A DNA stretch of 64,000 bases from a virus. Taxonomy: Duplodnaviria; Caudoviricetes. Position 1 is the first letter of the stretch; the number at the start of each line of letters is the position of its first letter. The position numbers and the translations under genes are program-made. The stretch lies in the IMG/VR virus record IMGVR_UViG_3300021091_000011. The stretch is one strand, 5' to 3'. The notes under the pieces are model-generated. The model had not been told where the DNA came from, searched no databases, and saw only the letters and a list, made by a program, of their open reading frames with translations. Shown piece by piece: positions 45,024 to 62,532 of this stretch.

Positions 45024-45557
45024 ATGAACAAGCCGTCACCTATCCGTGTAGCAAGTCGCTATCTAAACGCCAGCCTCACGCTCGCCTTCGTCGGCAACGT
45101 CGGGGCCAAGAGCACTAAGATTCAGGACATTGGCGAAAAGGCCGCTGATGAACTCAAAGCGTTAGTCGGTGAAGCCGAAGCCGAAGCCTTGATTCGCAAC
45201 AAGTTGGCTCGGGACAAAGGCTTTTTCTTCCACGTCACGATTATTTCACCGCCCGAAGTGAAAGATATCGTGAACCGAATGGCCGCAGATAAAGCCATGA
45301 GCAAGTCCAAGGCATCGGACGAGTTCAAGGCCGAAGTCGAAGCGTTCGGCCTTACGGATAGCGGCTTGAAGTCACTCGGCTTGGGCAAGGCCGAGAAGGG
45401 CAGCGACGTGGCTTATTTCGCCGTTCTCGATTGGCCCGACGCTCAAAAACTGCGCGCCAAGTTCGGCTTGAGTGATTTCGATTTCCACACGACGATTGGT
45501 TTTGTTAAGGCCGACGTTCACGGCGTTCGCAAGAATCGATCTACTCTGATTCGCTAA
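45024..45557 (+). CDS. 2H phosphoesterase with an N-terminal RVASRYLNA tag
   Basis: Two HxT motifs: FFFHVTIISP and DFHTTIGF. Confidence 0.8.
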   Translation: MNKPSPIRVASRYLNASLTLAFVGNVGAKSTKIQDIGEKAADELKALVGEAEAEALIRNKLARDKGFFFHVTIISPPEVKDIVNRMAADKAMSKSKASDEFKAEVEAFGLTDSGLKSLGLGKAEKGSDVAYFAVLDWPDAQKLRAKFGLSDFDFHTTIGFVKADVHGVRKNRSTLIR

Positions 45558-45600
45558 CACGGCTATCGCCGTGTGATTGTTACACGACAGGGGACTTTCG

Positions 45601-46185
45601 ATGCGTAAGTTGAGTTCTGCTGATCGTTCGGCCCTGATCAAGTTGGCTTCCAGTCTTCCGTCTGGTTCGCCCGAGAGAAAGGCGATTCTCGCCGGACTTC
45701 AGGGTTCAAGCAAGAAGGCTTCTGGTGATGTTAACATTTCGGGTAAGCACATCACCGCTGCAGGGTACACCTACACGCCGAACGAGCTTCCGGTCTCGGA
45801 GATCAACCCCTCCAAGATCCCCAGTCGAACGGCCCGAGAGTACCAAAAGCGACTCCTCGTCGATCTCAAGAGGAAGTTCCCCTACAATGAGATCCGGCTT
45901 GACATGTTGGGGTTCATCACAGGCTCCCCCTTCACCTATATCAAGTTCAACGGTCTCGGGACCCGCCTGGACCTCGGGATGTGGTTCGACCAGAAGCCCC
46001 AGGACGTCTGGGTGCTCAGGCTCCACATTTCGTGGGGAAGCCACTACGAAAGCGGGAACTACAAGGCCATCGACATTCCTTGGGCTGGCGACCTCGACGC
46101 GATCTACGCAAAGGTCAAGAAGGCGTCAGTCACCCTCGTCGAGTTGGGGCTCTCGAAGATCGAGGAGGCCAAGGCCAGGCCATAA
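45601..46185 (+). CDS. Leader-tagged protein carrying a recently captured domain
   Basis: MRKLSSADRSALIKLASSLPSGSPERKAILAGLQGSSKKASGDVNISGKHI, then an unrelated domain with strongly C/G-ending codons. Confidence 0.8.
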   Translation: MRKLSSADRSALIKLASSLPSGSPERKAILAGLQGSSKKASGDVNISGKHITAAGYTYTPNELPVSEINPSKIPSRTAREYQKRLLVDLKRKFPYNEIRLDMLGFITGSPFTYIKFNGLGTRLDLGMWFDQKPQDVWVLRLHISWGSHYESGNYKAIDIPWAGDLDAIYAKVKKASVTLVELGLSKIEEAKARP

Positions 46186-46314
46186 CCCAGGAGTACCTGA
46201 TTGCCCTTCTACGGAATTAGAGCATGAAGCCTCATAAGGTTCCGTAGCGGATATTGGTGAAAAACCCGATTGTCGGGTCATCCAACGGAAACTCCAGAAT
46301 GGAACAGGAACACC

Positions 46315-47244
46315 GTGAAAAATAAGTCGATAGTGCTCGTTACTCTGACGCTCGCCTGCTCGCATCCGGTCGCCCGCGACGAGCCCGCGCCTCTCCTCAA
46401 CCCGTCTGCCGCGCCGCCCCCGACGCTGCGGACGCTCAAGATTACTTCCGAATGTGCGGACCCCATCTGGATTCAACAGGAGAACCACGCGGGTGCTCCT
46501 GCGCTCACGAAACTGACCAAGGGCACGTCAACTTCATTTAGTATCCCCGACGAAGGCTTGCCGTCTACGCGCTACTGGGCAAAGACGGGCTGCGACGCCA
46601 CCGGAAATAGCTGCGCGGTTGGACAGTCCTCGCCGCCTTGCCCCGCTGCTGGATGCGCTCCTCCGGTGGACAGCAAGTTGGAGGCAACGTGGGGCTGCAC
46701 GCTGCCAGAGGCGCAAAAGGAGCAATGCGCCAAGACGGATCAAGGACCACACGTCAAGAATACATGGTGGAACGCGAGTGCCGTTGACGGCTTCACGCTG
46801 CCCTTCCTCGTTGCGGTCAGCGGCGCATCCTCAGACGCCTGTGCGCCTGTCAACTGCGCCATGCTGGACCAGAACAAGTGTCCCGCGTCGGAATCCCTGC
46901 CGCCCGCCTACCCAGGTGGGGTGGATCTGCGTGTGCAGGGCGGTGCGGGGTGCTTCTCGCCATGCACGGCGCTCACCTATCCCGGCTTTGGCGGTAAAGG
47001 CATCCAACCGCCGAGCGACCCTCGCGCTGCCGCGTACTGCTGCCCGACGCCGCCTGTGTCGCCCGCACAATGCTCTAGTGGCCCTGCGGCGACGACGAAA
47101 TACGTCGAGGCTATCCACAAAATGTGCGCGGACACGACCTACGGCTATGCCTATGACGACGCGCTAGGTCTGCGTCAATGCGACCCAACAGTTGAACTTC
47201 AGCTTATTTTCTGTCCCGGTATTCCGGCAGTAGCGACGCCGTGA
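46315..47244 (+). CDS. Thaumatin-like (GH64-TLP superfamily) lipoprotein
   Basis: GTG start MKNKSIVLVTLTLA-C (lipobox-like); YWAKTGC, PPVDSKLEAT, WNASAVDGFTLP, GCFSPC, YCCP, YGYAYDD; many Cys. Confidence 0.78.
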   Translation: MKNKSIVLVTLTLACSHPVARDEPAPLLNPSAAPPPTLRTLKITSECADPIWIQQENHAGAPALTKLTKGTSTSFSIPDEGLPSTRYWAKTGCDATGNSCAVGQSSPPCPAAGCAPPVDSKLEATWGCTLPEAQKEQCAKTDQGPHVKNTWWNASAVDGFTLPFLVAVSGASSDACAPVNCAMLDQNKCPASESLPPAYPGGVDLRVQGGAGCFSPCTALTYPGFGGKGIQPPSDPRAAAYCCPTPPVSPAQCSSGPAATTKYVEAIHKMCADTTYGYAYDDALGLRQCDPTVELQLIFCPGIPAVATP

Positions 47245-47393
47245 TGCGCGGCGACGCCGAGGTGTCCGGCAAAGCCAAATGCTTCGGCAACGCCCGCATC
47301 GGTGGCACGGCTATTATCCTCGGTGGCGAATGGAACGGAAGCGAGGGTGAGGTCACTTCAGGTACTTGGCTGGCTCCGGGCGTTCCGGGCTGA
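47244..47393 (+). pseudogene. 3' remnant of a hexapeptide-repeat gene
   Basis: MRGDAEVSGKAKCFGNARIGGTAIILGGEWNGSEGEVTSGTWLAPGVPG is near-identical to the last ~49 aa of the 60738-62105 protein. Confidence 0.85.
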
Positions 47394-47435
47394 TTCCCTA
47401 GTTTTGACGACGCCTAACAAGAAGGTTTGACCCCC

Positions 47436-47978
47436 ATGCGTAAGTTGAGTTCAAGCGACCGTTCGGCCCTGATTCGGCTTGCTTATGCCCGACCTGATCT
47501 TCGTCCCGCTCTTCTGCCCCTCTTGAAGAAGGCGAGTAACTTCCCCCGCGTCGTGAAGGAAGTCGAAGAGGACTACAAGCGCAAGGCAATAACGGTCAGA
47601 GAAAAGAACGAACTACTCGCCGCCATTGAGGACGCGGAGACTGAAGAACAAGCCATGGGGTTAGTAAGGAACCACCGTAAGGGGCGTGTTGCAAAAGAGG
47701 CTTCCGCATCCCCGTCTAACCCGCGCATCGTGCGGTTGCGCGATGGGAAGTTCGGCATCGAGTTCCACACCAACCGAGGCGTGTTCGTCTGGACGCAGAA
47801 CAAGAGTTTCACCCACTCATTCAAACTCGACCGCGAAGATGACCGAGATCGTTCTCCTTTGACTTACGATTCACCTACTGCGGCGCAATCGGGTATGAAA
47901 GAGGCTCTTTACGAAATCTATCGTTACCGACCAGGTGATGAAGACTTCGTGCGTGGGCACGAACCCGTGAAAGTTTAG
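47436..47978 (+). CDS. Leader-variant-tagged two-domain protein
   Basis: MRKLSSSDRSALIRLAYARPDLRPALLPLLKKAS; internal linker RKGRVAKEASAS. Confidence 0.75.
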   Translation: MRKLSSSDRSALIRLAYARPDLRPALLPLLKKASNFPRVVKEVEEDYKRKAITVREKNELLAAIEDAETEEQAMGLVRNHRKGRVAKEASASPSNPRIVRLRDGKFGIEFHTNRGVFVWTQNKSFTHSFKLDREDDRDRSPLTYDSPTAAQSGMKEALYEIYRYRPGDEDFVRGHEPVKV

Positions 47979-47997: not shown

Positions 47998-48420
47998 TCA
48001 GTATAAGTCGTCAGGCTCCGGCGTGACCGGAAATCTGACGACCCAAATCCATTCGACGCCGATGTAGGCCGAGCGCGTCAAACGATGCATTCCGTCCATC
48101 ACGTCGCCCTCTGCCGATAGTATGATCGGACAGAGCAAGTCCGCATCGGCCACTCTCTTCAAGTGGCCGATGAACGTATTGAGCGTGATCTCATGCTCCC
48201 AATGCCAATTGTCTAACTCCCTAGCGAAGTAGCCGAGCGGCATCTTGTACGGCGTCAGGTCTTTCGCTAGACGCCATAGGCGTTCCACGCGCCACGTCTT
48301 ACCGCCGCTAGAGTAAGTATGCTGATTTATCGCTTCATCAAATTGCGGCTCGATGGTGAGGCTTTTACTTTTGGCCTTATCAAGTTTGGCCTTTCCCCGT
48401 TTATTACGACGTGCGGACAT
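47998..48420 (-). CDS. ParB/Srx-like domain protein
   Basis: KRVADADLLCPIILSAEGDVMDGMHRL; the start is uncertain because of overlap with the next ORF. Confidence 0.7.
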   Translation of the reverse strand: MSARRNKRGKAKLDKAKSKSLTIEPQFDEAINQHTYSSGGKTWRVERLWRLAKDLTPYKMPLGYFARELDNWHWEHEITLNTFIGHLKRVADADLLCPIILSAEGDVMDGMHRLTRSAYIGVEWIWVVRFPVTPEPDDLY

Positions 48421-48620
48421 TTCAGGCACTTCCCTTCGTCCATCTGCAATAGCCCGCAGGCACGATGCCAATAGCAAAGCCGCTCGAAATCAGGGCCGCT
48501 TACTTTACCCCGCGAATCTTGCGGGTCAGGACCATAGACCTTTGCGTGAATCGGAGGCCACAAATCCCCGTTCGCACAAGTTATATCCGCACGATTAGCA
48601 TCCGGTTTCATTCGCTTCAC
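48327..48620 (-). CDS. Small Cys-containing hypothetical protein
   Basis: GTG start next to the polA stop; LCYWHRACG...KCLKCPHVV; overlaps the ParB-like ORF by about 90 nt. Confidence 0.45.
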   Translation of the reverse strand: MKRMKPDANRADITCANGDLWPPIHAKVYGPDPQDSRGKVSGPDFERLCYWHRACGLLQMDEGKCLKCPHVVINGERPNLIRPKVKASPSSRNLMKR

Positions 48621-48621
48621 G

Positions 48622-51600
48622 TCACAACCCCTCGTATCCCGCGATGATCTTAAACTCAGCGAATGACGCCTTGAAAGCAAACCCGAGCAAATCGGACCCA
48701 TGATCGGTCTCAATCACGATTTCGTCTTTGCCCCGATTCATGCACTTCGCCACCACCCGCGCCATGATTTCGGCAAGTTCCGGTGTCAGCCTATGCGCCG
48801 GAATCGTGTAGACGTGCCGCGATTGCGAAGATATGGGCATCACAAAATCAGGCGTGCTCTCAATCGGCGCGGCAACAGGGACCGCTTCGGCCACGGACTT
48901 TGCTTCGCCCACGCCGCCGTTCGCCAGATACTCAGCATAGAACTTCGGGAATACCCGCTGCCAACGCTCGGACCAAACTTCAGGCTTTGTCTCGCGCGGA
49001 TTCGTCATCGCTACGAGATTAAACGGCACCGTCCAATCATCGCCAAACTCGATGTCGTTCTTCAGCGGGATGATCCACCCGAGGTTTTTCACCGTGCGAA
49101 CCGTCATCAACTCATTGATCGTCACTACTGCTTCTTCGGCCAAGTCCTCATCGATCTCGAACACGAGTTCGTCGTGAATCGTCACACACATTCTAGCCTT
49201 ATCCAACCACCCGCGCTCTTTGCACTCGCGGTAAATAAGGCCCATCGCAAACTTCATAATGTCTGCGGAACTTCCTTGAACAGGGCCATTGACTGAGTTT
49301 CTTTCGGCCTTGGATCGGAACCCGCCGTCCGTGTGGTCAATGTCGGGCAATGGGTATTTACGGCCATAGGCCGTCGTGACGTACTTTTGCTTGCGCGCGG
49401 TCTTGTGCTGCTCTTCCCACCACTTCGCCAAGCCACGGTAGGACTTGTCAAACTGCCGCTTAATACGCCAGCCTTCTTCTTTGTCTACGCCAACCGAACG
49501 CTGCGCCGCAGACCCACCCCCGCCGTAACACATAGCGAAGTTGAGGCTATTATGAACTGCAAGCCCATTCGCCGCGTAGAGGTGATCTTCGGAGTCGATA
49601 TGCAGGTCTAGGCAAAGGGAATCGCCTGCCGGAACGATCAGCAAGACTTCATTCCCCAAGCGGTCATAGGCTTTGCTCGTGCCACTAATGCGCGCGATTT
49701 TGCCCGGATGCCGCATATAAGGTGCGATAAGCGCACCATCACGCCGCTTGAATCCGACTTTCACATACCATCTGGAATACTTCTTGTTCCACGACGTTGT
49801 GATTGTCGCCTCGCCGCCAATAGCACGAATGATCTCCGCGATCTGCCCCGCGAAAACAAAGTCCTTCGTGCAAATGTTAATGTCACCGCCTGATGACACG
49901 GAGCCGTCAGTATCAATCAAGCCGCCAAGATAGTGCGCCATAGCCGACCTGCCGCCTTGAAGAATCCAACGCGGCACTCGAAGCGTTCTTTTCGTCGACG
50001 GGCTACCGTCAACTAACCCGAGCGTCTGCATCCATCGAAGCACATGGCGGCTGCCTAGATAGACGTTCTTTTTTCTGGCGATTGGCTCTAACCCAACGTC
50101 CCGACACGCGGCCATGATGATTTCTTGCCACTCGGAGTAGCGGACCCCCAACGCATCCGTTTTCTCGACGGACCCATGCGTAATCGTGGCGCACGCCGTA
50201 CTAGAAGCACCATCCCCCGCGTGCAAGCCGCTGAAATAAGCCGTCGCCATTGTCGGCGTGTAGGCCATCTCAGGAACTCCTGCGAAAGCCTTGTGACTTA
50301 GTGTCTTCGGTTCTTGTTCATCGGCGGCAAGAAACACCGGAGCATGAAGCGTGTCGCCTGCTTTTAGACCTTCACGCAGAGATTTTTGCGTGCCGTCTGC
50401 CAACACGAACTTGTGCTCTTCAGAGCACGTCAAAACCCCTCTTCGGCTGACGACGTGGTAAAGGGGTTTGATGCCGCCGTTGTACGTCTCAAGTATTGGC
50501 GCAAAACCACCCTTCGGTGTAAGCACCTTTCCGGAATGCGGCTTGAATTCGTCCACACCACCAAAAGCGAGGTCACCGATGCGGGTGTACCCGCTATCCA
50601 TTCGGATCAGCGTGTCCGGATGCACGCACTTCGAGTTTTGGCGTTTTAGCTTGAAGTCGCTCTTTGACGGCGCATCTTCGCCGTAAATCGCCAATGCGGT
50701 CAGCGTGTGCAAGTCACCGATCTTGTCTGACCAACAAGACGGGCAGAAATGCGGAGGGCACGAACCCTTCTCAAAGCGGTGCTCACAACCCGAGCATCGG
50801 AAAAACTCATCAACCCACTTCGGCTCGCCCGAAAGATTCGTGACGATACGAAGCTCCACGCCCGAGTAGTCGATGGCGAACAGGATTTTGCCCGCCGTCG
50901 CTTTCACGCTCGTTCGCATCTTACGAACGCACTCAGGCTTAGACTTGTCATACGTCGCCGGAATCGAGTGTAGATTCCACCGCGATTGGCCCGTGAAATC
51001 CCCTGATTCAGAAGCGGGAGTTGAAAACCGCCCCGTGTCCGTCTTGGTAGCGTTGAACCCAACCCACAATCGACCGTCGGGGCTATTTCCAGGTGCTAGG
51101 TCATGGTAGACCGGAAACAGGTTAGACGAAAGCCCCTTTGCCACTTCACGGAACCGCTTGATTTTGGGCGCAAAGGGCAAGTCGTCGCCCATATCCTCGA
51201 AGATACGATTAATCTCATCCTTGCTCGTCTTGACCTGACCTGACTTTTCAGTCACGGTCAGCCCCTCGACGCCGAGTTCACGAAGCAAAAGCCCGAGTTC
51301 AGTCGGGATCGTCACGTCGTAGGTATTCGGAAACTGCACCGTCTCGCGCACTTTGGCGTCGGTGAGTGAAGGCACCGACTTCGGCACTTTCACGTCGGGG
51401 TCAGGCCCAAGGTCTTTAATGACCTGCTCCCGATGCTCCATGTACGACGGCTCCATGCAATCGGCATCGAATGGCGTATTGATTCGATGATGCTGCCCCT
51501 GCATGGACTTGAACCAACCGGGCCGCACATCGCGCCCCAAGATGGTTTCAATGCCCGCGTAAAGTTCAGCCAACGAGTCAAACCATTCGCGTTGGCCGAG

Positions 51601-52425
51601 CTTGATCAACTTGATAATCGTCGCGCGGTCCATTGGTACACGGCATCGCTCCATCCACCGTGTCGCCGTGACGCAAAGTTTCTCGATCTTGTAAACCGTC
51701 GCTTGGCTTTTACCGAAGGCGTCTTTTTGCGTCACTTCGGGATTCAGCTTGTGATAGAGCGCGAGAGTGTTAAGCGAGTCAGCCGCCGCATACCAGACGG
51801 TCGGCTCCCACTTTGGGTCGAGCGTCGAAAAGTCGAAACGCTTGGTCCCTGTGGGGAACAACTCGTTCAACTCAATCATTTCGCGCTCAAGCAACGTCTT
51901 AGCCAAATGCTTTAGACCGCGCCGCTTTTCACGCGCGTCCCGCAAATAGGCCAGCAGAATCGTGTCCTCCCACTTGGAGGGATCATCCCAACAGCCCATC
52001 GCGCCCGCGATATCGTGCTCTAAGAACTCTTGGTCGAACTTGCCGTTGTGAAACACCGTCACCGCACCGGACGCCTGAATCTTTAGGAGCAGGTCCCGCA
52101 CTAAACGCGGCGGGATATTAGCAGCGGCCCCGTCGTCTTTGTGGCGAATCGGCAAGTAATACGATTGCTTCTCATTCGGCGCGATGCAAACGCCAACAAT
52201 CTTGTCGTTGGTCACTTTAGAGCCATCTGGCTGCGTGAAAACACGCGCATCAAGGCCCGTTGTCTCAATGTCGAGCGCGTAGATTTTAGATTCGATGCAC
52301 TCGTCGGCGATGCGGTCTAAATCGGCCACGGTTGCCAGCGTTAGCGTGACGGTTTCCATCCACGGCTTTTTGCTCACCGTGGGGCGATTCAGGTCTTGCA
52401 GTTGGTCGAAGAAATCCATGCCCAC
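48622..52425 (-). CDS. polA: Family A DNA polymerase with 3'-5' exonuclease and an intein
   Basis: Exo I ALDIETTGL, Exo II FHNGKFD, Exo III YAAAD; motif A AIDYSGVELRIV; motif B KRQNSK|SLNFAMCYG; motif C IHDELVFE. Confidence 0.95.
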   Translation of the reverse strand: MGMDFFDQLQDLNRPTVSKKPWMETVTLTLATVADLDRIADECIESKIYALDIETTGLDARVFTQPDGSKVTNDKIVGVCIAPNEKQSYYLPIRHKDDGAAANIPPRLVRDLLLKIQASGAVTVFHNGKFDQEFLEHDIAGAMGCWDDPSKWEDTILLAYLRDAREKRRGLKHLAKTLLEREMIELNELFPTGTKRFDFSTLDPKWEPTVWYAAADSLNTLALYHKLNPEVTQKDAFGKSQATVYKIEKLCVTATRWMERCRVPMDRATIIKLIKLGQREWFDSLAELYAGIETILGRDVRPGWFKSMQGQHHRINTPFDADCMEPSYMEHREQVIKDLGPDPDVKVPKSVPSLTDAKVRETVQFPNTYDVTIPTELGLLLRELGVEGLTVTEKSGQVKTSKDEINRIFEDMGDDLPFAPKIKRFREVAKGLSSNLFPVYHDLAPGNSPDGRLWVGFNATKTDTGRFSTPASESGDFTGQSRWNLHSIPATYDKSKPECVRKMRTSVKATAGKILFAIDYSGVELRIVTNLSGEPKWVDEFFRCSGCEHRFEKGSCPPHFCPSCWSDKIGDLHTLTALAIYGEDAPSKSDFKLKRQNSKCVHPDTLIRMDSGYTRIGDLAFGGVDEFKPHSGKVLTPKGGFAPILETYNGGIKPLYHVVSRRGVLTCSEEHKFVLADGTQKSLREGLKAGDTLHAPVFLAADEQEPKTLSHKAFAGVPEMAYTPTMATAYFSGLHAGDGASSTACATITHGSVEKTDALGVRYSEWQEIIMAACRDVGLEPIARKKNVYLGSRHVLRWMQTLGLVDGSPSTKRTLRVPRWILQGGRSAMAHYLGGLIDTDGSVSSGGDINICTKDFVFAGQIAEIIRAIGGEATITTSWNKKYSRWYVKVGFKRRDGALIAPYMRHPGKIARISGTSKAYDRLGNEVLLIVPAGDSLCLDLHIDSEDHLYAANGLAVHNSLNFAMCYGGGGSAAQRSVGVDKEEGWRIKRQFDKSYRGLAKWWEEQHKTARKQKYVTTAYGRKYPLPDIDHTDGGFRSKAERNSVNGPVQGSSADIMKFAMGLIYRECKERGWLDKARMCVTIHDELVFEIDEDLAEEAVVTINELMTVRTVKNLGWIIPLKNDIEFGDDWTVPFNLVAMTNPRETKPEVWSERWQRVFPKFYAEYLANGGVGEAKSVAEAVPVAAPIESTPDFVMPISSQSRHVYTIPAHRLTPELAEIMARVVAKCMNRGKDEIVIETDHGSDLLGFAFKASFAEFKIIAGYEGL
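49549..50628 (-). mobile_element. Intein (360 aa) with a LAGLIDADG endonuclease in polymerase motif B
   Basis: Starts CVHPDTL; block B TCSEEH; YFSGLHAGDG and YLGGLIDTDG; ends AVHN followed by Ser. Confidence 0.93.
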
Positions 52426-60073: not shown

Positions 60074-60703
60074 TTGGCAAACTCAGTCGAACTACTTGGA
60101 TTCTACGGCAGCGACGAAACCCATGCGCTTAGTGCTTGGACGTCAACCTCGCGCGATTTGCCGGACGAAAAACGCAACCGCATCGGCGCGTTGCTTGCTA
60201 AACTCGCCAAAGATGGGCACTTGACGCCGTTCGAGAAGTCCAGCCTGCATTTCTTGGTGACGAGCGATATTGCTTCGCATATACACCTGCTCAAGCATCG
60301 CATTGGAATTAGCCTGAACTCAGAATCGGCCAGATACAAAGAACTGAAAGACGACAAGGCGCACGTCCCGAGCGATTGGCCGAAGCACTTGCAGGAGAAA
60401 CTAGAAGCCCATGCGCGGGATAGTTTCGCGCTCTATCATTGGGCGGTGCGTGAGTTGGAGATCGAAGGCATGACCCGCAAGCGGGCGAAAGAATCGGCGC
60501 GGTTTTTCTTGCCCTACGCGAATCAAATCACTTGCGACGTCATGTTCAATTGGCGGTCGTTCGCGCATTTCTTGGCGCTGCGAAACAAGCCCGATGCTCA
60601 AGTCGAGATTAGAGACCTCGCCGCCGAAATGCTCCGATTGGTCGAAGCGACGGGCGCTTTTCCGCTGACGATTGCAGCGTTGCGTGAAGCACGCCAGATT
60701 TGA
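60074..60703 (+). CDS. thyX: Flavin-dependent thymidylate synthase
   Basis: GHLTPFE, HLLKHRIGISLNSESARY, ARFFLP, NWRSFAHFLALR...AQVEIR. Confidence 0.92.
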   Translation: MANSVELLGFYGSDETHALSAWTSTSRDLPDEKRNRIGALLAKLAKDGHLTPFEKSSLHFLVTSDIASHIHLLKHRIGISLNSESARYKELKDDKAHVPSDWPKHLQEKLEAHARDSFALYHWAVRELEIEGMTRKRAKESARFFLPYANQITCDVMFNWRSFAHFLALRNKPDAQVEIRDLAAEMLRLVEATGAFPLTIAALREARQI

Positions 60704-60737
60704 CGGCGTTAGACGGATTATCGACCATTTTTAAGAA

Positions 60738-62105
60738 ATGGCGATGAAGCCATACCCTCTCTTCAGAAATGGACTTGCGATGAAACTCACGCCCAACCTC
60801 AAAAAGTTCTTTGATTTGCTTAAGACGCTCGATGAAGTTGCGTTTTCGATTAAAACCGATGACATAATCAAAGAAGCCTCTAAAAAATGTGATTTCGATC
60901 ATCTTCCTGAGAGATGGGATGATTATCTTGATAAGCAAGAGAAATATTTTTATGATGATGGGGATGGATATGAACTTATTGATAGTCTTTTAGTTGAGAA
61001 ACCTCAATTGAAAGCCCTCTCTAACGCTATCCATGATCCCGATGAAGACCCCGATTATACTGTTTTGGATTGGATCTATGATAACGCAGATGATTTTAGT
61101 GGGTTTTACATCCCTAATTTATTTGATAGGCTAAGGAGAGACTCGAAACTCGAAGAGGAGTATGAGGGTTATCTCTCTGATGCTATGAGAGATTGTCACC
61201 AGGACGCAGAAGAAAGTAGAGACCCTTACGGCTATCGTGGTCTGAGCCGTTCTATGTTCTATGCTTCGCGTAAAGTCGCCGCTTCTGACCGTTCGGCGCT
61301 GATCCGCTTGGCCTCTAGTCTGCCCGCTGGTTCGCCTGAGCGTAGGGCTATTTTGACCGGACTTCAAGCGTCAAGCAAGAAGGCTTCTGGCGGGGTCTAC
61401 AAAGGCAATTATAACATTCCTGGCAAACACATCTTGGGTCCAAACGCCGATGTGTCCGAAAACGCCATGGTAGCCCAAGACGCCCTGGTGTGGGACAACG
61501 CCAAGGTGTTCAACGGAGCCTTTGTGTTCGACAATGCTAAGGTGTTCGGAAATGCCAAGGTATACGGCGACGCCTGGGTTGGCGGTAGAGCCCATGTGTA
61601 CGGCAAAGCCGAGGTGTATGACATAGCCAAAGTGTTCGGCAACGTCAAGGTGTACGGCAACGTCAAGGTGTACGGCAAAGCCAAGGTGCGCGACAAAGCC
61701 AAGGTGTCCGGAAGAGCCCAGGTGTCTGACAACGCCGAGGTGTACGGCACGGCTCATGTGGGAGAAAGAGCCTATGTGGAGGGCAACGCCAAGGTGTACG
61801 GCGACGCCTGGGTGTCCGGTGACGCCTATGTGTTCGGCAACGCCGAGGTGAGCGGCAACGCCAAGGTGCTCGGCAACGCCGGGGTGTACGACAACGCCAT
61901 TGTGGGCGGCGACGCCCAGGTGTACGGCAATGCCGTGGTGTACGGCAACGCCGAGGTGAGAGGCAAAGCCGAGGTGTACGGCGAAGCCAAATGCTTCGGC
62001 AAAGCCCGAATCGGTGGTAATGCGATTATCCTCGGCGGCGAATGGGACGGAAGCGAGGGCGCGGTCACTTCCGGTACTTGGCGAGGTCCAGGCGTTCCTG
62101 CCTGA
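60738..62105 (+). CDS. Chimeric protein: AT-rich acidic domain, internal leader, hexapeptide (LbH) repeat domain
   Basis: Residues from about 60780 to 61210 are encoded in visibly AT-rich DNA; internal SRKVAASDRSALIRLASSLPAGSPERRAILTGLQASSKKAS; (VYGNAK)n repeats. Confidence 0.8.
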   Translation: MAMKPYPLFRNGLAMKLTPNLKKFFDLLKTLDEVAFSIKTDDIIKEASKKCDFDHLPERWDDYLDKQEKYFYDDGDGYELIDSLLVEKPQLKALSNAIHDPDEDPDYTVLDWIYDNADDFSGFYIPNLFDRLRRDSKLEEEYEGYLSDAMRDCHQDAEESRDPYGYRGLSRSMFYASRKVAASDRSALIRLASSLPAGSPERRAILTGLQASSKKASGGVYKGNYNIPGKHILGPNADVSENAMVAQDALVWDNAKVFNGAFVFDNAKVFGNAKVYGDAWVGGRAHVYGKAEVYDIAKVFGNVKVYGNVKVYGKAKVRDKAKVSGRAQVSDNAEVYGTAHVGERAYVEGNAKVYGDAWVSGDAYVFGNAEVSGNAKVLGNAGVYDNAIVGGDAQVYGNAVVYGNAEVRGKAEVYGEAKCFGKARIGGNAIILGGEWDGSEGAVTSGTWRGPGVPA

Positions 62106-62143
62106 ATCCCTAGCCTAGAACAATCAAGAAGGTTTGATCTCCC

Positions 62144-62311
62144 ATGCGTACTTTGACCGCCTCTGACCGTTCTGCTTTGATCAAGTTGGCCGCAAGCCTG
62201 CCTGCTGGATCACCCGAGCGCAAGGCTTGGACGAGGCGACGAAGCATGATGTCATCGCGGGCGTTGAAGAGCGATCCGCGTTCGGCGCTGAGAAATACGG
62301 CCAAGTGCTGA
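62144..62311 (+). pseudogene. Leader stub out of frame with the downstream gene
   Basis: MRTLTASDRSALIKLAASLPAGSPERKA, then the frame runs into an unnatural tail. Confidence 0.7.
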
Positions 62312-62454
62312 TGAGCCGTGACGGGCGTGATTCGGTGAACGATGCGGTGCAGGAGTTGATTGACGCTTTGCAATACGTTCAAGCAGCCCGCATGAAAGAA
62401 CAGGACTTAGGGATCATCAAGCCTTACCTGGCGTTGCTGACCCGATTGGTCTGA
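62227..62454 (+). CDS. Conserved small phage protein (KYG..L...GRD...DA..E..D motif)
   Basis: EKYGQVLMSRDGRDSVNDAVQELIDALQY; TTG start overlapping the leader stub. Confidence 0.6.
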   Translation: MDEATKHDVIAGVEERSAFGAEKYGQVLMSRDGRDSVNDAVQELIDALQYVQAARMKEQDLGIIKPYLALLTRLV

Positions 62455-62532
62455 TCGGTCTGACGGTAGACCGATTATCACCCGCTAGAAGGCAAATAGC
62501 GCGAAGTCGCTAAACCTCTTCTAGGGTTTTGT

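What the first reader, a model, noticed from the sequence alone, without database searches (positions are those of the whole stretch)
45601..47440. Cargo capture recorded in the sequence: foreign DNA replaced the middle of a leader-LbH gene
Seen: the 45601 protein keeps leader + KKASG..NISGKHI, matching KKASG..NIPGKHI of the LbH protein at about 61380-61433, then switches at about 45753 to an unrelated domain. About 1.5 kb later, 47244-47393 encodes the last 49 aa of that same LbH protein. It is followed by the same intergenic CAAGAAGGTTTGA..CCCATGCGTA and another leader, as at about 62125-62150. So 45.6-47.4 kb is a paralog of 61.3-62.2 kb whose interior was swapped for a new in-frame domain plus a thaumatin-like gene. 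Inference: leader loci act as acceptor sites where new domains gain the tag.
Basis: seen in the sequence. Interest (0 to 1): 0.82.

Follow-up and report, generated by a model that had tools for sequence, protein, structure and literature searches.

The report
Phage gene's core replaced, scars kept
In an uncultivated freshwater giant phage, the repeat core of a leader-tagged beta-helix gene was replaced by about 1.5 kb of other DNA, which fused an unknown domain in frame to the leader, added a thaumatin-like lipoprotein gene, and left both ends of the old gene as scars.

Summary
45617-45725 matches 61282-61390 (80% nt, E 8e-24). 47233-47448 matches 61945-62156 (81%, E 3e-54). The matches are collinear and the interiors are unrelated.

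It is not an assembly artefact. Two other assemblies are 99.98% identical, and contigs from three sequencing runs cover both junctions.

The decisive evidence is synteny. Three related phage lineages carry [intact leader-LbH][leader-Y][small minus-strand gene][DNA polymerase A]. The window carries the split LbH (a left-handed beta-helix hexapeptide-repeat protein) in that same slot, so the intact gene is ancestral.

About 1.48 kb (45754-47229) replaced the hexapeptide core:
- A 143-aa orphan domain is now fused in frame behind leader + KKAS linker + LbH N-cap.
- A thaumatin-like lipoprotein gene follows. It has its own signal peptide, lost its last two codons, and stops inside the LbH remnant.

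A second pair, P0005/P0011 from syntenic contigs, is 90% identical up to the same cap residue ("..HI") and unrelated after it.

That the leader is a virion-loading tag is untested. The thaumatin-like gene did not gain it.

The closest analogy is cassette shuffling behind the capsid-targeting leader in T-even internal-protein loci, plus moron accretion.

Earlier notes of this scan concern this same genome only, not other DNA.

The parts
45601..46185 (+). Fusion gene (194 aa): leader + KKAS linker + LbH N-cap remnant + orphan domain
   Evidence: ORF. Called as a gene in independent JGI and Logan assemblies. 100% identical cluster P0001.
45601..45723 (+). Leader (MRKLSSADRSALIKLASSLPSGSPERKAILAGLQ) plus GSSKKAS linker, residues 1-41
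   Evidence: 80% nt identity to 61282-61390. The same leader occurs on 57 other metagenomic proteins with unrelated bodies. Six other copies lie in the window. AlphaFold2 predicts two short helices, at low confidence.
45724..45753 (+). LbH N-terminal cap remnant (GDVNISGKHI). The left junction falls after 45753.
   Evidence: Among 58 leader proteins the cap motif occurs only in LbH proteins, in P0001 and in the swapped P0011. It also heads the leaderless second LbH unit of P0048. Alignment.
45754..46185 (+). Orphan domain (residues 52-194) fused in frame
   Evidence: phmmer of residues 50-194 against 1.84 billion representatives returns only the protein itself. No Pfam or PHROG match in this or the alternative frames. 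GC at codon positions 1/2/3 is 0.52/0.40/0.83, which is coding periodicity. Single-sequence AlphaFold2 gives an alpha/beta fold, pLDDT 70-87 in the C-terminal half. Only weak fold matches.
46186..46314 (.). Intergenic spacer inside the inserted segment
   Evidence: GC 0.50. No promoter-like or terminator-like site on the + strand.
46315..47244 (+). Thaumatin-like lipoprotein gene (309 aa). Sequence is native up to 47229; the last codons VATP and the stop come from the junction and the LbH remnant read out of frame.
   Evidence: PF00314 full length, E 1.7e-15. 218 homologues, nearly all with a ...[AG]C lipobox-type N-terminus and the ending FCPG[IV]PA... Nucleotide similarity to the nearest relatives L006/L007 covers only 46412-47219. 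3' end alignment.
47229..47232 (.). Right junction
   Evidence: The thaumatin-like relatives read ...CCCGCATCACCGTGA. The window reads ...CCGGCA|GTA|GCGACGCCGTGATG, and LbH homology starts at 47232/47233. No direct or inverted repeats at either junction.
47232..47393 (+). LbH C-terminal remnant: 53 codons, i.e. 2.5 hexapeptide turns plus the conserved C-cap. A 49-aa ORF starts at ATG 47244, which overlaps the thaumatin-like gene's TGA.
   Evidence: 81% nt identity to 61945-62105. 64-71% aa identity to the tails of the intact LbH genes of L010 and L013. All family-invariant residues are kept. dN/dS against B is 0.48. Weak match to phrog_7964.
47394..47435 (.). Intergenic region shared with locus B, including CAAGAAGGTTTGA (47418-47430)
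   Evidence: Related upstream motifs precede leader genes in L003 and L005.
47436..47978 (+). Next leader gene (180 aa; diverged leader MRKLSSSDRSALIRLAYARPDL..KKAS). This is the 'leader-Y' slot.
   Evidence: The body behind the leader in this slot differs in each of four lineages.
47998..48477 (-). Conserved small gene used as the synteny anchor
   Evidence: 65-86% aa identity to genes in L010-L013 and L005. phrog_17560.
48622..52425 (-). DNA polymerase A (with intein), second synteny anchor
   Evidence: 70-72% aa identity to the 904-aa polA of L010, with a 358-aa insertion in the window's copy.
60738..62105 (+). Locus B, the intact paralogue: AT-rich N-domain (60738-61265), internal leader + cap (61266-61433), hexapeptide core (61434-61943), tail (61944-62105)
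   Evidence: PF18836 YdcK beta-solenoid 53.3 bits, Hexapep, Bactofilin. phrog_7964 E 3e-61. Composition.
62144..62226 (+). Downstream leader at locus B, cut after 28 codons
   Evidence: Homology to the other leaders ends at 62226. It is followed out of frame by a 75-aa ORF that matches only the C-terminal part of phrog_7609. Fixed in three runs.

Best explanation
The slot two genes upstream of the conserved small gene and DNA polymerase A originally held an ordinary leader-LbH gene. Its parts were a leader of about 34 aa, a KKAS linker, the NIPGKHI cap, an array of 18-nt hexapeptide repeats, and the C-cap GGxWxGSEG..SGxW..PGVP.

In this phage's lineage the repeat core was replaced by about 1.48 kb of unrelated DNA, through non-homologous (illegitimate) recombination in one or two steps.
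- The left break falls exactly after the cap (45753/45754). It joined an unknown coding sequence in frame, so a 143-aa orphan domain is now made behind leader + linker + cap.
- The right break (47229-47232) cut two codons off the end of a thaumatin-like lipoprotein gene. That gene now terminates at a TGA inside the LbH remnant.
- The last 53 LbH codons, the intergenic region and the next leader gene stayed in place.

Shown here: the homology of both flanks, the collinearity, the reality of the junctions, the intact state in orthologous slots, and the in-frame fusion.

Inferred: the recombination mechanism, the number of steps, and that the fused product is made and behaves as a leader-tagged protein like its neighbours. 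If the leader is a virion-loading signal, as in T4 internal proteins, the orphan domain would then be loaded.
For: - Flank homology and collinearity: E 8e-24 and 3e-54; protein alignment of the A N-part plus tail with five intact LbH proteins.
- Junctions are real.
- Intact LbH at the orthologous position: L010/L011/L012 have a 199-aa leader-LbH, then a 122-aa leader gene, the anchor gene and polA. L013 has the LbH tail, a 280-aa leader gene, the anchor and polA. L005 has a 159-aa leader-LbH, a 176-aa leader gene and the anchor.
- Cap and tail are LbH-specific.
- The thaumatin-like gene is truncated by two codons and borrows its stop.
- The thaumatin-like gene moves alone: its nearest relatives (80-82% aa) lie in unrelated contigs of 64-67% GC with no leader or LbH nearby, and nt similarity is confined to the coding region.
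- Composition: the insert's GC of 0.604 is at the 95th percentile of same-size windows.
- The fused segment is coding: GC3 0.83 against GC2 0.40, and a predicted fold.
- No transposon hallmarks: no flanking repeats.
- Parallel event: P0005 and P0011, from syntenic contigs, are 90% identical over residues 1-182 up to '..HI' and unrelated after it.
Against: - No intermediate allele was found, neither the same phage with an intact LbH nor one with only one of the two inserted genes. One step or two, and the timing, therefore stay open.
- The relatives with an intact LbH are distant (polA 60-72% aa), and synteny holds only on the right side. Genes to the left of the LbH differ.
- The donor of the orphan domain is unknown. 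Its composition lies within the range of native genes (window ORFs: GC3 mean 0.64, sd 0.09, maximum 0.82), so 'foreign' is unproven for it.
- The remnant tail keeps every invariant residue, has an ATG overlapping the upstream stop, and has dN/dS 0.48. It may not be a dead scar.
- Expression is not shown; no RNA run was listed.
Confidence: 0.85

Rival explanations
1. Piecemeal origin. The left and right similarities come from separate events. For example, homologous recombination between leader repeats copied 'LbH tail + intergenic + leader start' from a B-like locus to a place in front of the 47436 gene, while the 45601 gene independently carries a leader variant that happens to include a cap-like motif. 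On this view no single LbH gene was ever interrupted here.
For: Leader DNA is a dispersed repeat of 73-88% identity that could mediate such exchanges. Synonymous divergence differs between the flanks (dS 0.76 in the leader, 0.32 in the tail), though it rests on only about 35-40 synonymous sites each. The leader at 62144 is itself a recombination scar.
Against: Both flanks are collinear and in the right order and orientation. The cap is otherwise found only in LbH proteins and one swapped allele. Three related lineages have one intact LbH in exactly this slot. The right-hand homology begins inside the repeat array, not at a leader.
Confidence: 0.07
2. Assembly chimera. The split arrangement was created by mis-joining reads across leader or LbH repeats.
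For: The leader and LbH repeats do break assemblies. Logan contigs end at 47460 and 47244, and paralogous contigs give false 'joints' at 45722->47253.
Against: Three assemblies made by different pipelines agree at 99.98%. One 20-kb contig spans both junctions without a mismatch. A run not flagged as the source tiles them at uniform depth. The junctions lie in unique sequence, not inside the repeats.
Confidence: 0.01
3. The arrangement is a working operon rather than a scar. The 49-aa LbH C-cap peptide is translated by coupling to the thaumatin-like gene (TGATG overlap) and retains a function, for example capping or binding other LbH paralogues. Its retention is then selected, not accidental.
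For: The frame is intact after about 19% nt divergence from B, and all family-invariant residues are kept. dN/dS is 0.48. The ATG at 47244 overlaps the TGA at 47242-47244. JGI called it as a gene.
Against: 53 codons give little statistical power. The divergence from B may predate the interruption. A C-cap without the solenoid it caps has no known role.
Confidence: 0.2

Closest known systems
Internal-protein (IP) loci of T-even phages: unrelated proteins sharing the N-terminal capsid-targeting leader, in hyperplastic cassettes (Repoila et al. 1994 as cited in PMC2839356; PMC12373910)
   Same: Unrelated proteins in a large phage share only an N-terminal leader and sit in tandem. The body behind the leader differs between related phages at the same locus. 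Conserved short sequences flank the cassettes. [quoted passage not shown]
   Different: - The leader here is about 34 aa plus a KKAS linker (predicted helix-turn-helix). The T4 signal is much shorter, about 10 residues from my own knowledge, not checked here.
- The leader here also occurs internally and C-terminally (P0002, P0005, locus B).
- Its packaging role is untested.
- The exchange documented here broke inside the cargo gene and left scars, rather than swapping a clean cassette between flanking elements.
Moron accretion in phage genomes (Hendrix et al. 2000, as discussed in PMC2839356)
   Same: A single autonomous gene with a cell-type function, the thaumatin-like lipoprotein with its own signal peptide, was inserted by non-homologous recombination. 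Its GC is somewhat higher than the surroundings. Its relatives sit in unrelated genomic contexts.
   Different: It landed inside a gene rather than between genes and lost its own stop codon. No promoter or terminator of its own was detected. It arrived together with, or next to, a coding segment that became fused to the host gene.
YdcK-type beta-solenoid / left-handed beta-helix hexapeptide proteins (Pfam PF18836, PF00132; phrog_7964, phrog_5070)
   Same: Locus B and the orthologues in L005, L010 and L013 are members. The remnants at A align to the family's N-cap and C-cap.
   Different: At A only 10 N-terminal and 53 C-terminal residues of the domain remain. The solenoid itself is gone.
Thaumatin family (PF00314)
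   Same: Full-length domain match, a Cys-rich secreted protein, and the C-terminal ..FCP motif.
   Different: It is phage-borne and has a bacterial lipoprotein-type signal. tblastn found no match in 50,697 GenBank phage records.

Membership tests
YdcK-type beta-solenoid / LbH hexapeptide proteins (for the remnants at locus A) | N-terminal cap strand [NF][IV]P[GD][KV]HI directly before the repeats | tested here: met
   A has NISGKHI at 45733-45753. The motif is restricted to LbH proteins among 58 leader proteins, apart from two swapped genes.
YdcK-type beta-solenoid / LbH hexapeptide proteins (for the remnants at locus A) | Tandem hexapeptide (18-nt) repeats forming the solenoid | tested here: not met
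   Only about 2.5 repeats remain at 47232-47280. Locus B passes PF18836 (53.3 bits against 30) and PF00132. The A products do not.
YdcK-type beta-solenoid / LbH hexapeptide proteins (for the remnants at locus A) | C-terminal cap GGxWxGSEG..SGxW..PG[IV]P | tested here: met
   47322-47390 encodes GGEWNGSEGEVTSGTWLAPGVP. tblastn to the LbH gene of L010 gives 64% identity, E 1e-16.
Thaumatin family PF00314 | Full-length match above Pfam's gathering score | tested here: met
   57.7 bits against 27.4, profile positions 2-209 of 209.
Thaumatin family PF00314 | Conserved disulphide framework and beta-1,3-glucan binding or hydrolysis | not tested
   The precursor has 19 Cys. The disulphide pattern and any activity were not examined.
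T4-type capsid-targeting-sequence (CTS) internal proteins | Unrelated proteins share only an N-terminal leader | tested here: met
   All 58 proteins retrieved carry the leader motif. The 57 other than the query match it over only 16-60% of its length, with visibly diverse bodies. Seven copies lie in the window.
T4-type capsid-targeting-sequence (CTS) internal proteins | The leader directs packaging into the prohead, and the proteins are found in virions and injected | not testable with these tools
   The phage is uncultivated. The leader is absent from GenBank phages. No proteomics exist.
T4-type capsid-targeting-sequence (CTS) internal proteins | The leader is removed by the prohead protease at a defined site | not testable with these tools
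   A recurrent K-[KT]-A-[ST] motif follows the leader. Earlier notes of this scan proposed it as a cleavage site. This is unverified.
T4-type capsid-targeting-sequence (CTS) internal proteins | Sequence homology to the T4 CTS | not tested
   No comparison with a T4 CTS sequence was run. The leader gives no Pfam or PHROG match and no tblastn match in 50,697 GenBank phage records. The relation is treated as an analogy only.
Transposon or homing-element insertion | Target-site duplication, terminal inverted repeats, or a mobility gene | tested here: not met
   No repeats at 45753 or 47230. The insert encodes only the orphan domain and the thaumatin-like protein.

The most novel reading that the evidence does not exclude
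Leader + KKAS linker + 'NIPGKHI' strand is a natural plug-in module of a widespread group of uncultivated freshwater huge phages. It would load whatever is fused behind it into the virion. The joint right after '..HI' would be a preferred fusion point, at which unrelated domains have replaced the beta-helix at least twice independently (this locus, and P0005/P0011). Such loci would then be the phage's way of recruiting new injected or packaged proteins, and the 45601 orphan domain a freshly recruited one.
Probability: 0.25. Interest if true: 0.75.

Novelty: new variant of a known kind. Interest (0 to 1): 0.5.

Why it matters
Phage mosaicism is usually inferred from clean module boundaries. Here both scars of the interrupted gene survive, the intact state is preserved in orthologous slots of relatives, and the junctions can be placed to within 0-3 nt. 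The event is therefore an unusually legible record of how a phage gene array acquires a new protein body behind a shared leader, and a cell-derived secreted protein beside it.

If the leader proves to be a virion-loading signal, this family would be a second, independent system of the T4 internal-protein type, found in uncultivated huge phages. It would come with a ready-made natural fusion joint that could be tested for loading foreign proteins.

If the leader has another role, the finding remains a well-documented but ordinary case of illegitimate recombination in a hyperplastic region.

Tried and rejected
- Relatives in IMG/VR: scans with the 45601 protein, the thaumatin-like protein, the 2H-SAK protein and the 47436 protein gave nothing. 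A JGI metagenome scan with 2H-SAK also gave nothing. A distant blastn of the locus against GenBank phages gave nothing. Relatives were reached instead through the protein cluster database and exact-protein look-ups.
- Whole genome: none is held, so the other LbH paralogues of this phage could not be read.
- Function of the orphan domain: Pfam and PHROGs gave no match. phmmer against 1.84 billion representatives returned only the protein itself. Foldseek against PDB had no match with E <= 0.001. The ESM Atlas gave only TM 0.5-0.57 to unnamed viral clusters. Alternative frames and the opposite strand have no Pfam match. The domain is unrelated to the P0011 replacement domain.
- Composition as proof of foreign origin: rejected as decisive. 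The insert's GC is only at the 95th percentile, and the orphan domain's GC3 of 0.83 is matched by a few native genes.
- 'Joints' 45722->47253 and 45723->47283 in the read layout: considered as possible intact alleles. Rejected because those contigs differ from A at 4-7 of about 59 leader positions, and one continues with the sequence of locus B. They are paralogues.
- Promoter, terminator and repeat scans at the junctions: nothing informative.
- RNA evidence: no RNA run was listed.
- Polymorphism at the truncated leader at 62226: none in three runs.
- Repoila et al. 1994 (PMC395341) is not held. It is cited only through PMC2839356 and PMC12373910.
Full report
**What the window is.** The window is part of a large, uncultivated freshwater phage genome.
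- No whole genome is held. The same proteins lie on a 204-kb contig.
- The runs that hold the DNA are lake-water metagenomes.
- The only GenBank phage with a similar DNA polymerase A is an uncultured 485-kb phage, at 49.5% aa identity.
- A conserved peptide of about 34 aa (..SDRSALIKLASSLPAGSPERRAILAGL..), usually followed by a GSSKKAS-type linker, starts or interrupts seven ORFs in the window: 14043, 14749, 45601, 47436, 61266 (internal), 62144 and the right edge on the minus strand.
- The same leader occurs on 57 further metagenomic proteins with unrelated bodies.
- It gives no Pfam or PHROG match and is absent from 50,697 GenBank phage records.

**Checking the observation.** blastn of 45400-47700 against 60700-62500 gives two strong collinear matches.
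- 45617-45725 matches 61282-61390 (80%, E 8e-24).
- 47233-47448 matches 61945-62156 (81%, E 3e-54).
- A short match covers the cap (45732-45753 to 61412-61433).
- The intergenic 13-mer CAAGAAGGTTTGA occurs exactly only at 47418 and 62125.
- Between the matches, locus A has about 1.48 kb unrelated to the 0.51 kb of hexapeptide repeats in locus B.
- Locus B (60738-62105) is a YdcK-type beta-solenoid / hexapeptide protein (PF18836 53.3 bits, PF00132; phrog_7964 E 3e-61).
- 46315-47244 is a full-length thaumatin-family protein (PF00314, E 1.7e-15).

The description is therefore correct. The corrections are minor. The retained LbH tail is 53 codons from about 47232. The next leader gene starts at 47436. 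The leader in B is internal.

**Not an artefact.**
- The locus is 99.98% identical on a 32-kb JGI contig and on a 20-kb Logan contig.
- In the contig layout one 20,306-bp contig of run X1 spans 45400-47460 without a difference.
- Run X2 covers the locus with two contigs.
- Run X3, not flagged as a possible source, tiles both junctions with error-free overlapping contigs at even depth.
- The 'joints' reported there (45722->47253, and 45723->47283 with 213 nt between) come from contigs that differ from A at several leader positions. One of them continues with locus B sequence. They are paralogous intact LbH genes, not alleles of A.

**Which state is ancestral.** Three observations decide this.
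1. *The retained pieces are LbH-specific.*
   - The cap [NF][IV]P[GD][KV]HI occurs in every leader-LbH protein retrieved (P0004, P0005, P0006, P0048).
   - It also heads the second, leaderless LbH unit of P0048.
   - Among the 54 non-LbH leader proteins it occurs only in P0001 (this gene) and P0011.
   - The tail carries every invariant residue of the family's C-cap, GGxWxGSEG..SGxW..PG[IV]P.
2. *Synteny.* The small minus-strand gene 47998-48477 and polA are conserved in related contigs.
   - In L010/L011/L012 (polA 70-72% aa, anchor gene 65%) the order, in window orientation, is intact leader-LbH (199 aa), leader gene (122 aa), anchor, polA.
   - In L013 (anchor 77%) it is LbH tail, leader gene (280 aa), anchor, polA.
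   - In L005 (anchor 86%) it is intact leader-LbH (159 aa), leader gene (176 aa), a 103-aa gene, anchor.
   - The window has the split LbH in exactly that slot. Locus A is therefore the positional orthologue of an intact gene, and B is a paralogue.
3. *Collinearity.* The A N-part and tail align collinearly with five intact LbH proteins.

**Anatomy of the replacement.**
- *Left junction, 45753/45754.* After ..GKHI the frame continues for 143 codons to the stop at 46185.
  - This segment has clear coding periodicity (GC at codon positions 0.52/0.40/0.83).
  - Single-sequence AlphaFold2 predicts an alpha/beta fold with pLDDT 70-87 in its C-terminal half.
  - It has no relative in 1.84 billion representative proteins. 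It has no family or convincing fold match, and nothing in the other frames.
- *Thaumatin-like gene.* A 129-nt spacer follows, then the gene.
  - Its product starts with a lipoprotein-type signal (..LTLAC), as do nearly all of its 218 homologues.
  - The homologues end ..FCPG[IV]PA(SP). The window's copy reads ..FCPGIPA|VATP*.
  - DNA alignment with the nearest relatives places the right junction at 47229-47232.
  - The gene lost its last two codons and its stop. It terminates at a TGA that lies in the LbH remnant, read out of frame.
- *No mobility hallmarks.* Neither junction has direct or inverted repeats, and the insert has no mobility gene. Non-homologous recombination is the default mechanism. 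This is an inference.

**Is the insert foreign?**
- *Thaumatin-like gene: reasonably so.*
  - Many homologues lie on long bacterial-size contigs or on MAGs named as bacteria.
  - The nearest relatives (80-82% aa) lie on short contigs of 64-67% GC whose other genes are unrelated to the window. They have no leader or LbH nearby.
  - Nucleotide similarity is confined to 46412-47219.
  - No GenBank phage has such a gene.
- *Insert as a whole.* Its GC of 0.604 is at the 95th percentile of same-size windows. This is only mildly unusual.
- *Orphan domain.* Its origin is unknown. GC3 of 0.83 is high (window ORFs: mean 0.64, sd 0.09), but a few native genes reach 0.78-0.82.
- *Most atypical segment.* Compositionally this is not at A at all. 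It is the N-terminal extension of locus B (GC 0.40, GC3 0.39, 0.6th percentile).

**Is the tail a dead scar?** This is undecided.
- It is intact, keeps all invariant residues, and has an ATG overlapping the upstream TGA.
- Against B it shows dN/dS 0.48.
- It has only 53 codons, and the divergence from B may predate the interruption.

**Does this generalise?** Several observations say these leader arrays are recombination-prone.
1. P0005 (N-domain + leader + LbH) and P0011 (same N-domain + leader + cap + unrelated domain) come from contigs with the same upstream genes. They are 90% identical over residues 1-182, up to '..HI', and unrelated after it. This is a second swap with its breakpoint at the same residue as here. 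L003 retains no tail remnant.
2. The leader-Y slot next to the LbH carries a different body in each of four lineages.
3. The leader at 62144 is cut after 28 codons and followed out of frame by a 75-aa ORF. That ORF matches only the C-terminal part of phrog_7609, and the arrangement is fixed in three runs.
4. Identical leader-plus-body modules occur with and without an N-terminal domain, for example P0047 and P0051.

At locus A, however, the breaks lie in the LbH body, not in the leader, and only one of the two incoming genes became fused. 'Leader loci are acceptor sites' is thus a fair but incomplete description. The hexapeptide-repeat gene may be what is fragile.

**How it probably works now (inferred).**
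- The 45601 gene should yield a leader-tagged protein with a new C-terminal domain.
- The thaumatin-like gene should yield a lipoprotein exported by the host. Its role is unknown. It may act on the cell envelope or on polysaccharide, going by what the family is known for.
- Whether the leader is a virion-loading signal cannot be tested here. No RNA run was listed, and there are no virion data.

**Comparison with what is known.**
- *T-even internal-protein loci* are the closest system.
  - Their proteins share only an N-terminal leader that directs packaging into capsids (PMC12373910).
  - More than 30 variants sit in two hyperplastic loci whose conserved flanking elements may drive shuffling (PMC2839356, citing Repoila et al. 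1994).
  - The present leader is much longer, also occurs internally and C-terminally, and has not been tied to capsids. It is not claimed as a homologue. This is an analogy, not membership.
- *Moron accretion.* The thaumatin-like gene fits this pattern, except that it landed inside a gene and lost its stop.

**Verdict.**
- The replacement history is strongly supported.
- The 'cargo capture' reading is plausible but untested.
- The finding is a new variant of a known kind, of moderate interest.
- Earlier notes of this scan on the leader, the LbH paralogues and the thaumatin-like gene all concern this same genome. None reports the event on other DNA.

Noticed in passing
window 60738-61265: The ORF of locus B extends 176 codons upstream of the leader through strongly AT-rich DNA (GC 0.40, GC3 0.39; 0.6th percentile of same-size windows), which makes the leader internal. 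The segment has no Pfam or Atlas match. It looks like a second, compositionally foreign fusion, this time on the N-terminal side of the leader. P0005, P0011 and about ten other metagenomic proteins have the same N-domain + internal-leader layout.
   Followed up: partly
window 62144-62454: The leader downstream of locus B is cut after 28 codons (..SPERKA at 62226). It is followed out of frame by a 75-aa ORF (TTG at 62227) that matches only positions 72-126 of the 130-position phrog_7609. This looks like a leader joined to a 5'-truncated gene in the wrong frame. It is identical in three sequencing runs.
   Followed up: partly
window 45551-45574: A stem-loop (ACACGGC-TATC-GCCGTGT) lies between the 2H-SAK gene and the 45601 leader and is unique in the window. 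A near-identical element (GCTAACACGGCTATCCCGCCGTGTTAGC) directly follows the stop of another LbH paralogue on a 5.9-kb contig of the same runs (loose ends). It may be a repeated intergenic element.
   Followed up: no
contigs of runs X1-X3, not in the window: A 419-bp contig, at a depth comparable to the phage's (about half to nearly equal), encodes a very short leader-LbH: leader, 213 nt, then tail. The phage therefore carries five or more LbH-type loci of very different repeat number.
   Followed up: no
window 49546-50619 (minus strand, inside polA 48622-52425): The DNA polymerase A carries a 358-aa insertion relative to the 904-aa orthologue in L010. The insertion starts C.. and ends ..HN, so it is an intein. 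The relative lacks it.
   Followed up: partly
window 47436-47978; L005 4481-5011; L010 8409-8777; L013 2296-3138: The gene slot between the LbH gene and the conserved minus-strand gene always starts with the leader but carries a different body in each of four phage lineages. The window's copy also has a diverged second half of the leader (LAYARPDLRPALLPLLKKAS).
   Followed up: partly
upstream of leader genes: window 47415-47435 and 62122-62143; L003 6040-6070; L005 3900-3926 and 4455-4480: A shared upstream motif (TCAAGA.AG....TTTGA.C.CCC before the ATG) precedes leader genes in different phages. The conserved DNA unit therefore extends about 20 nt upstream of the start codon and may include the ribosome-binding site.
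   Followed up: no
protein P0002 (329 aa, on a 249,913-bp contig): This protein carries the leader at both its N-terminus and its C-terminus. The peptide is therefore not strictly an N-terminal signal.
   Followed up: no
window 46315-47244: A thaumatin-like protein with a bacterial lipoprotein signal is encoded by a phage. tblastn found none in 50,697 GenBank phage records. Relatives of 60-82% aa identity occur on short metagenomic contigs of small ORFs, which may also be phages.
   Followed up: partly
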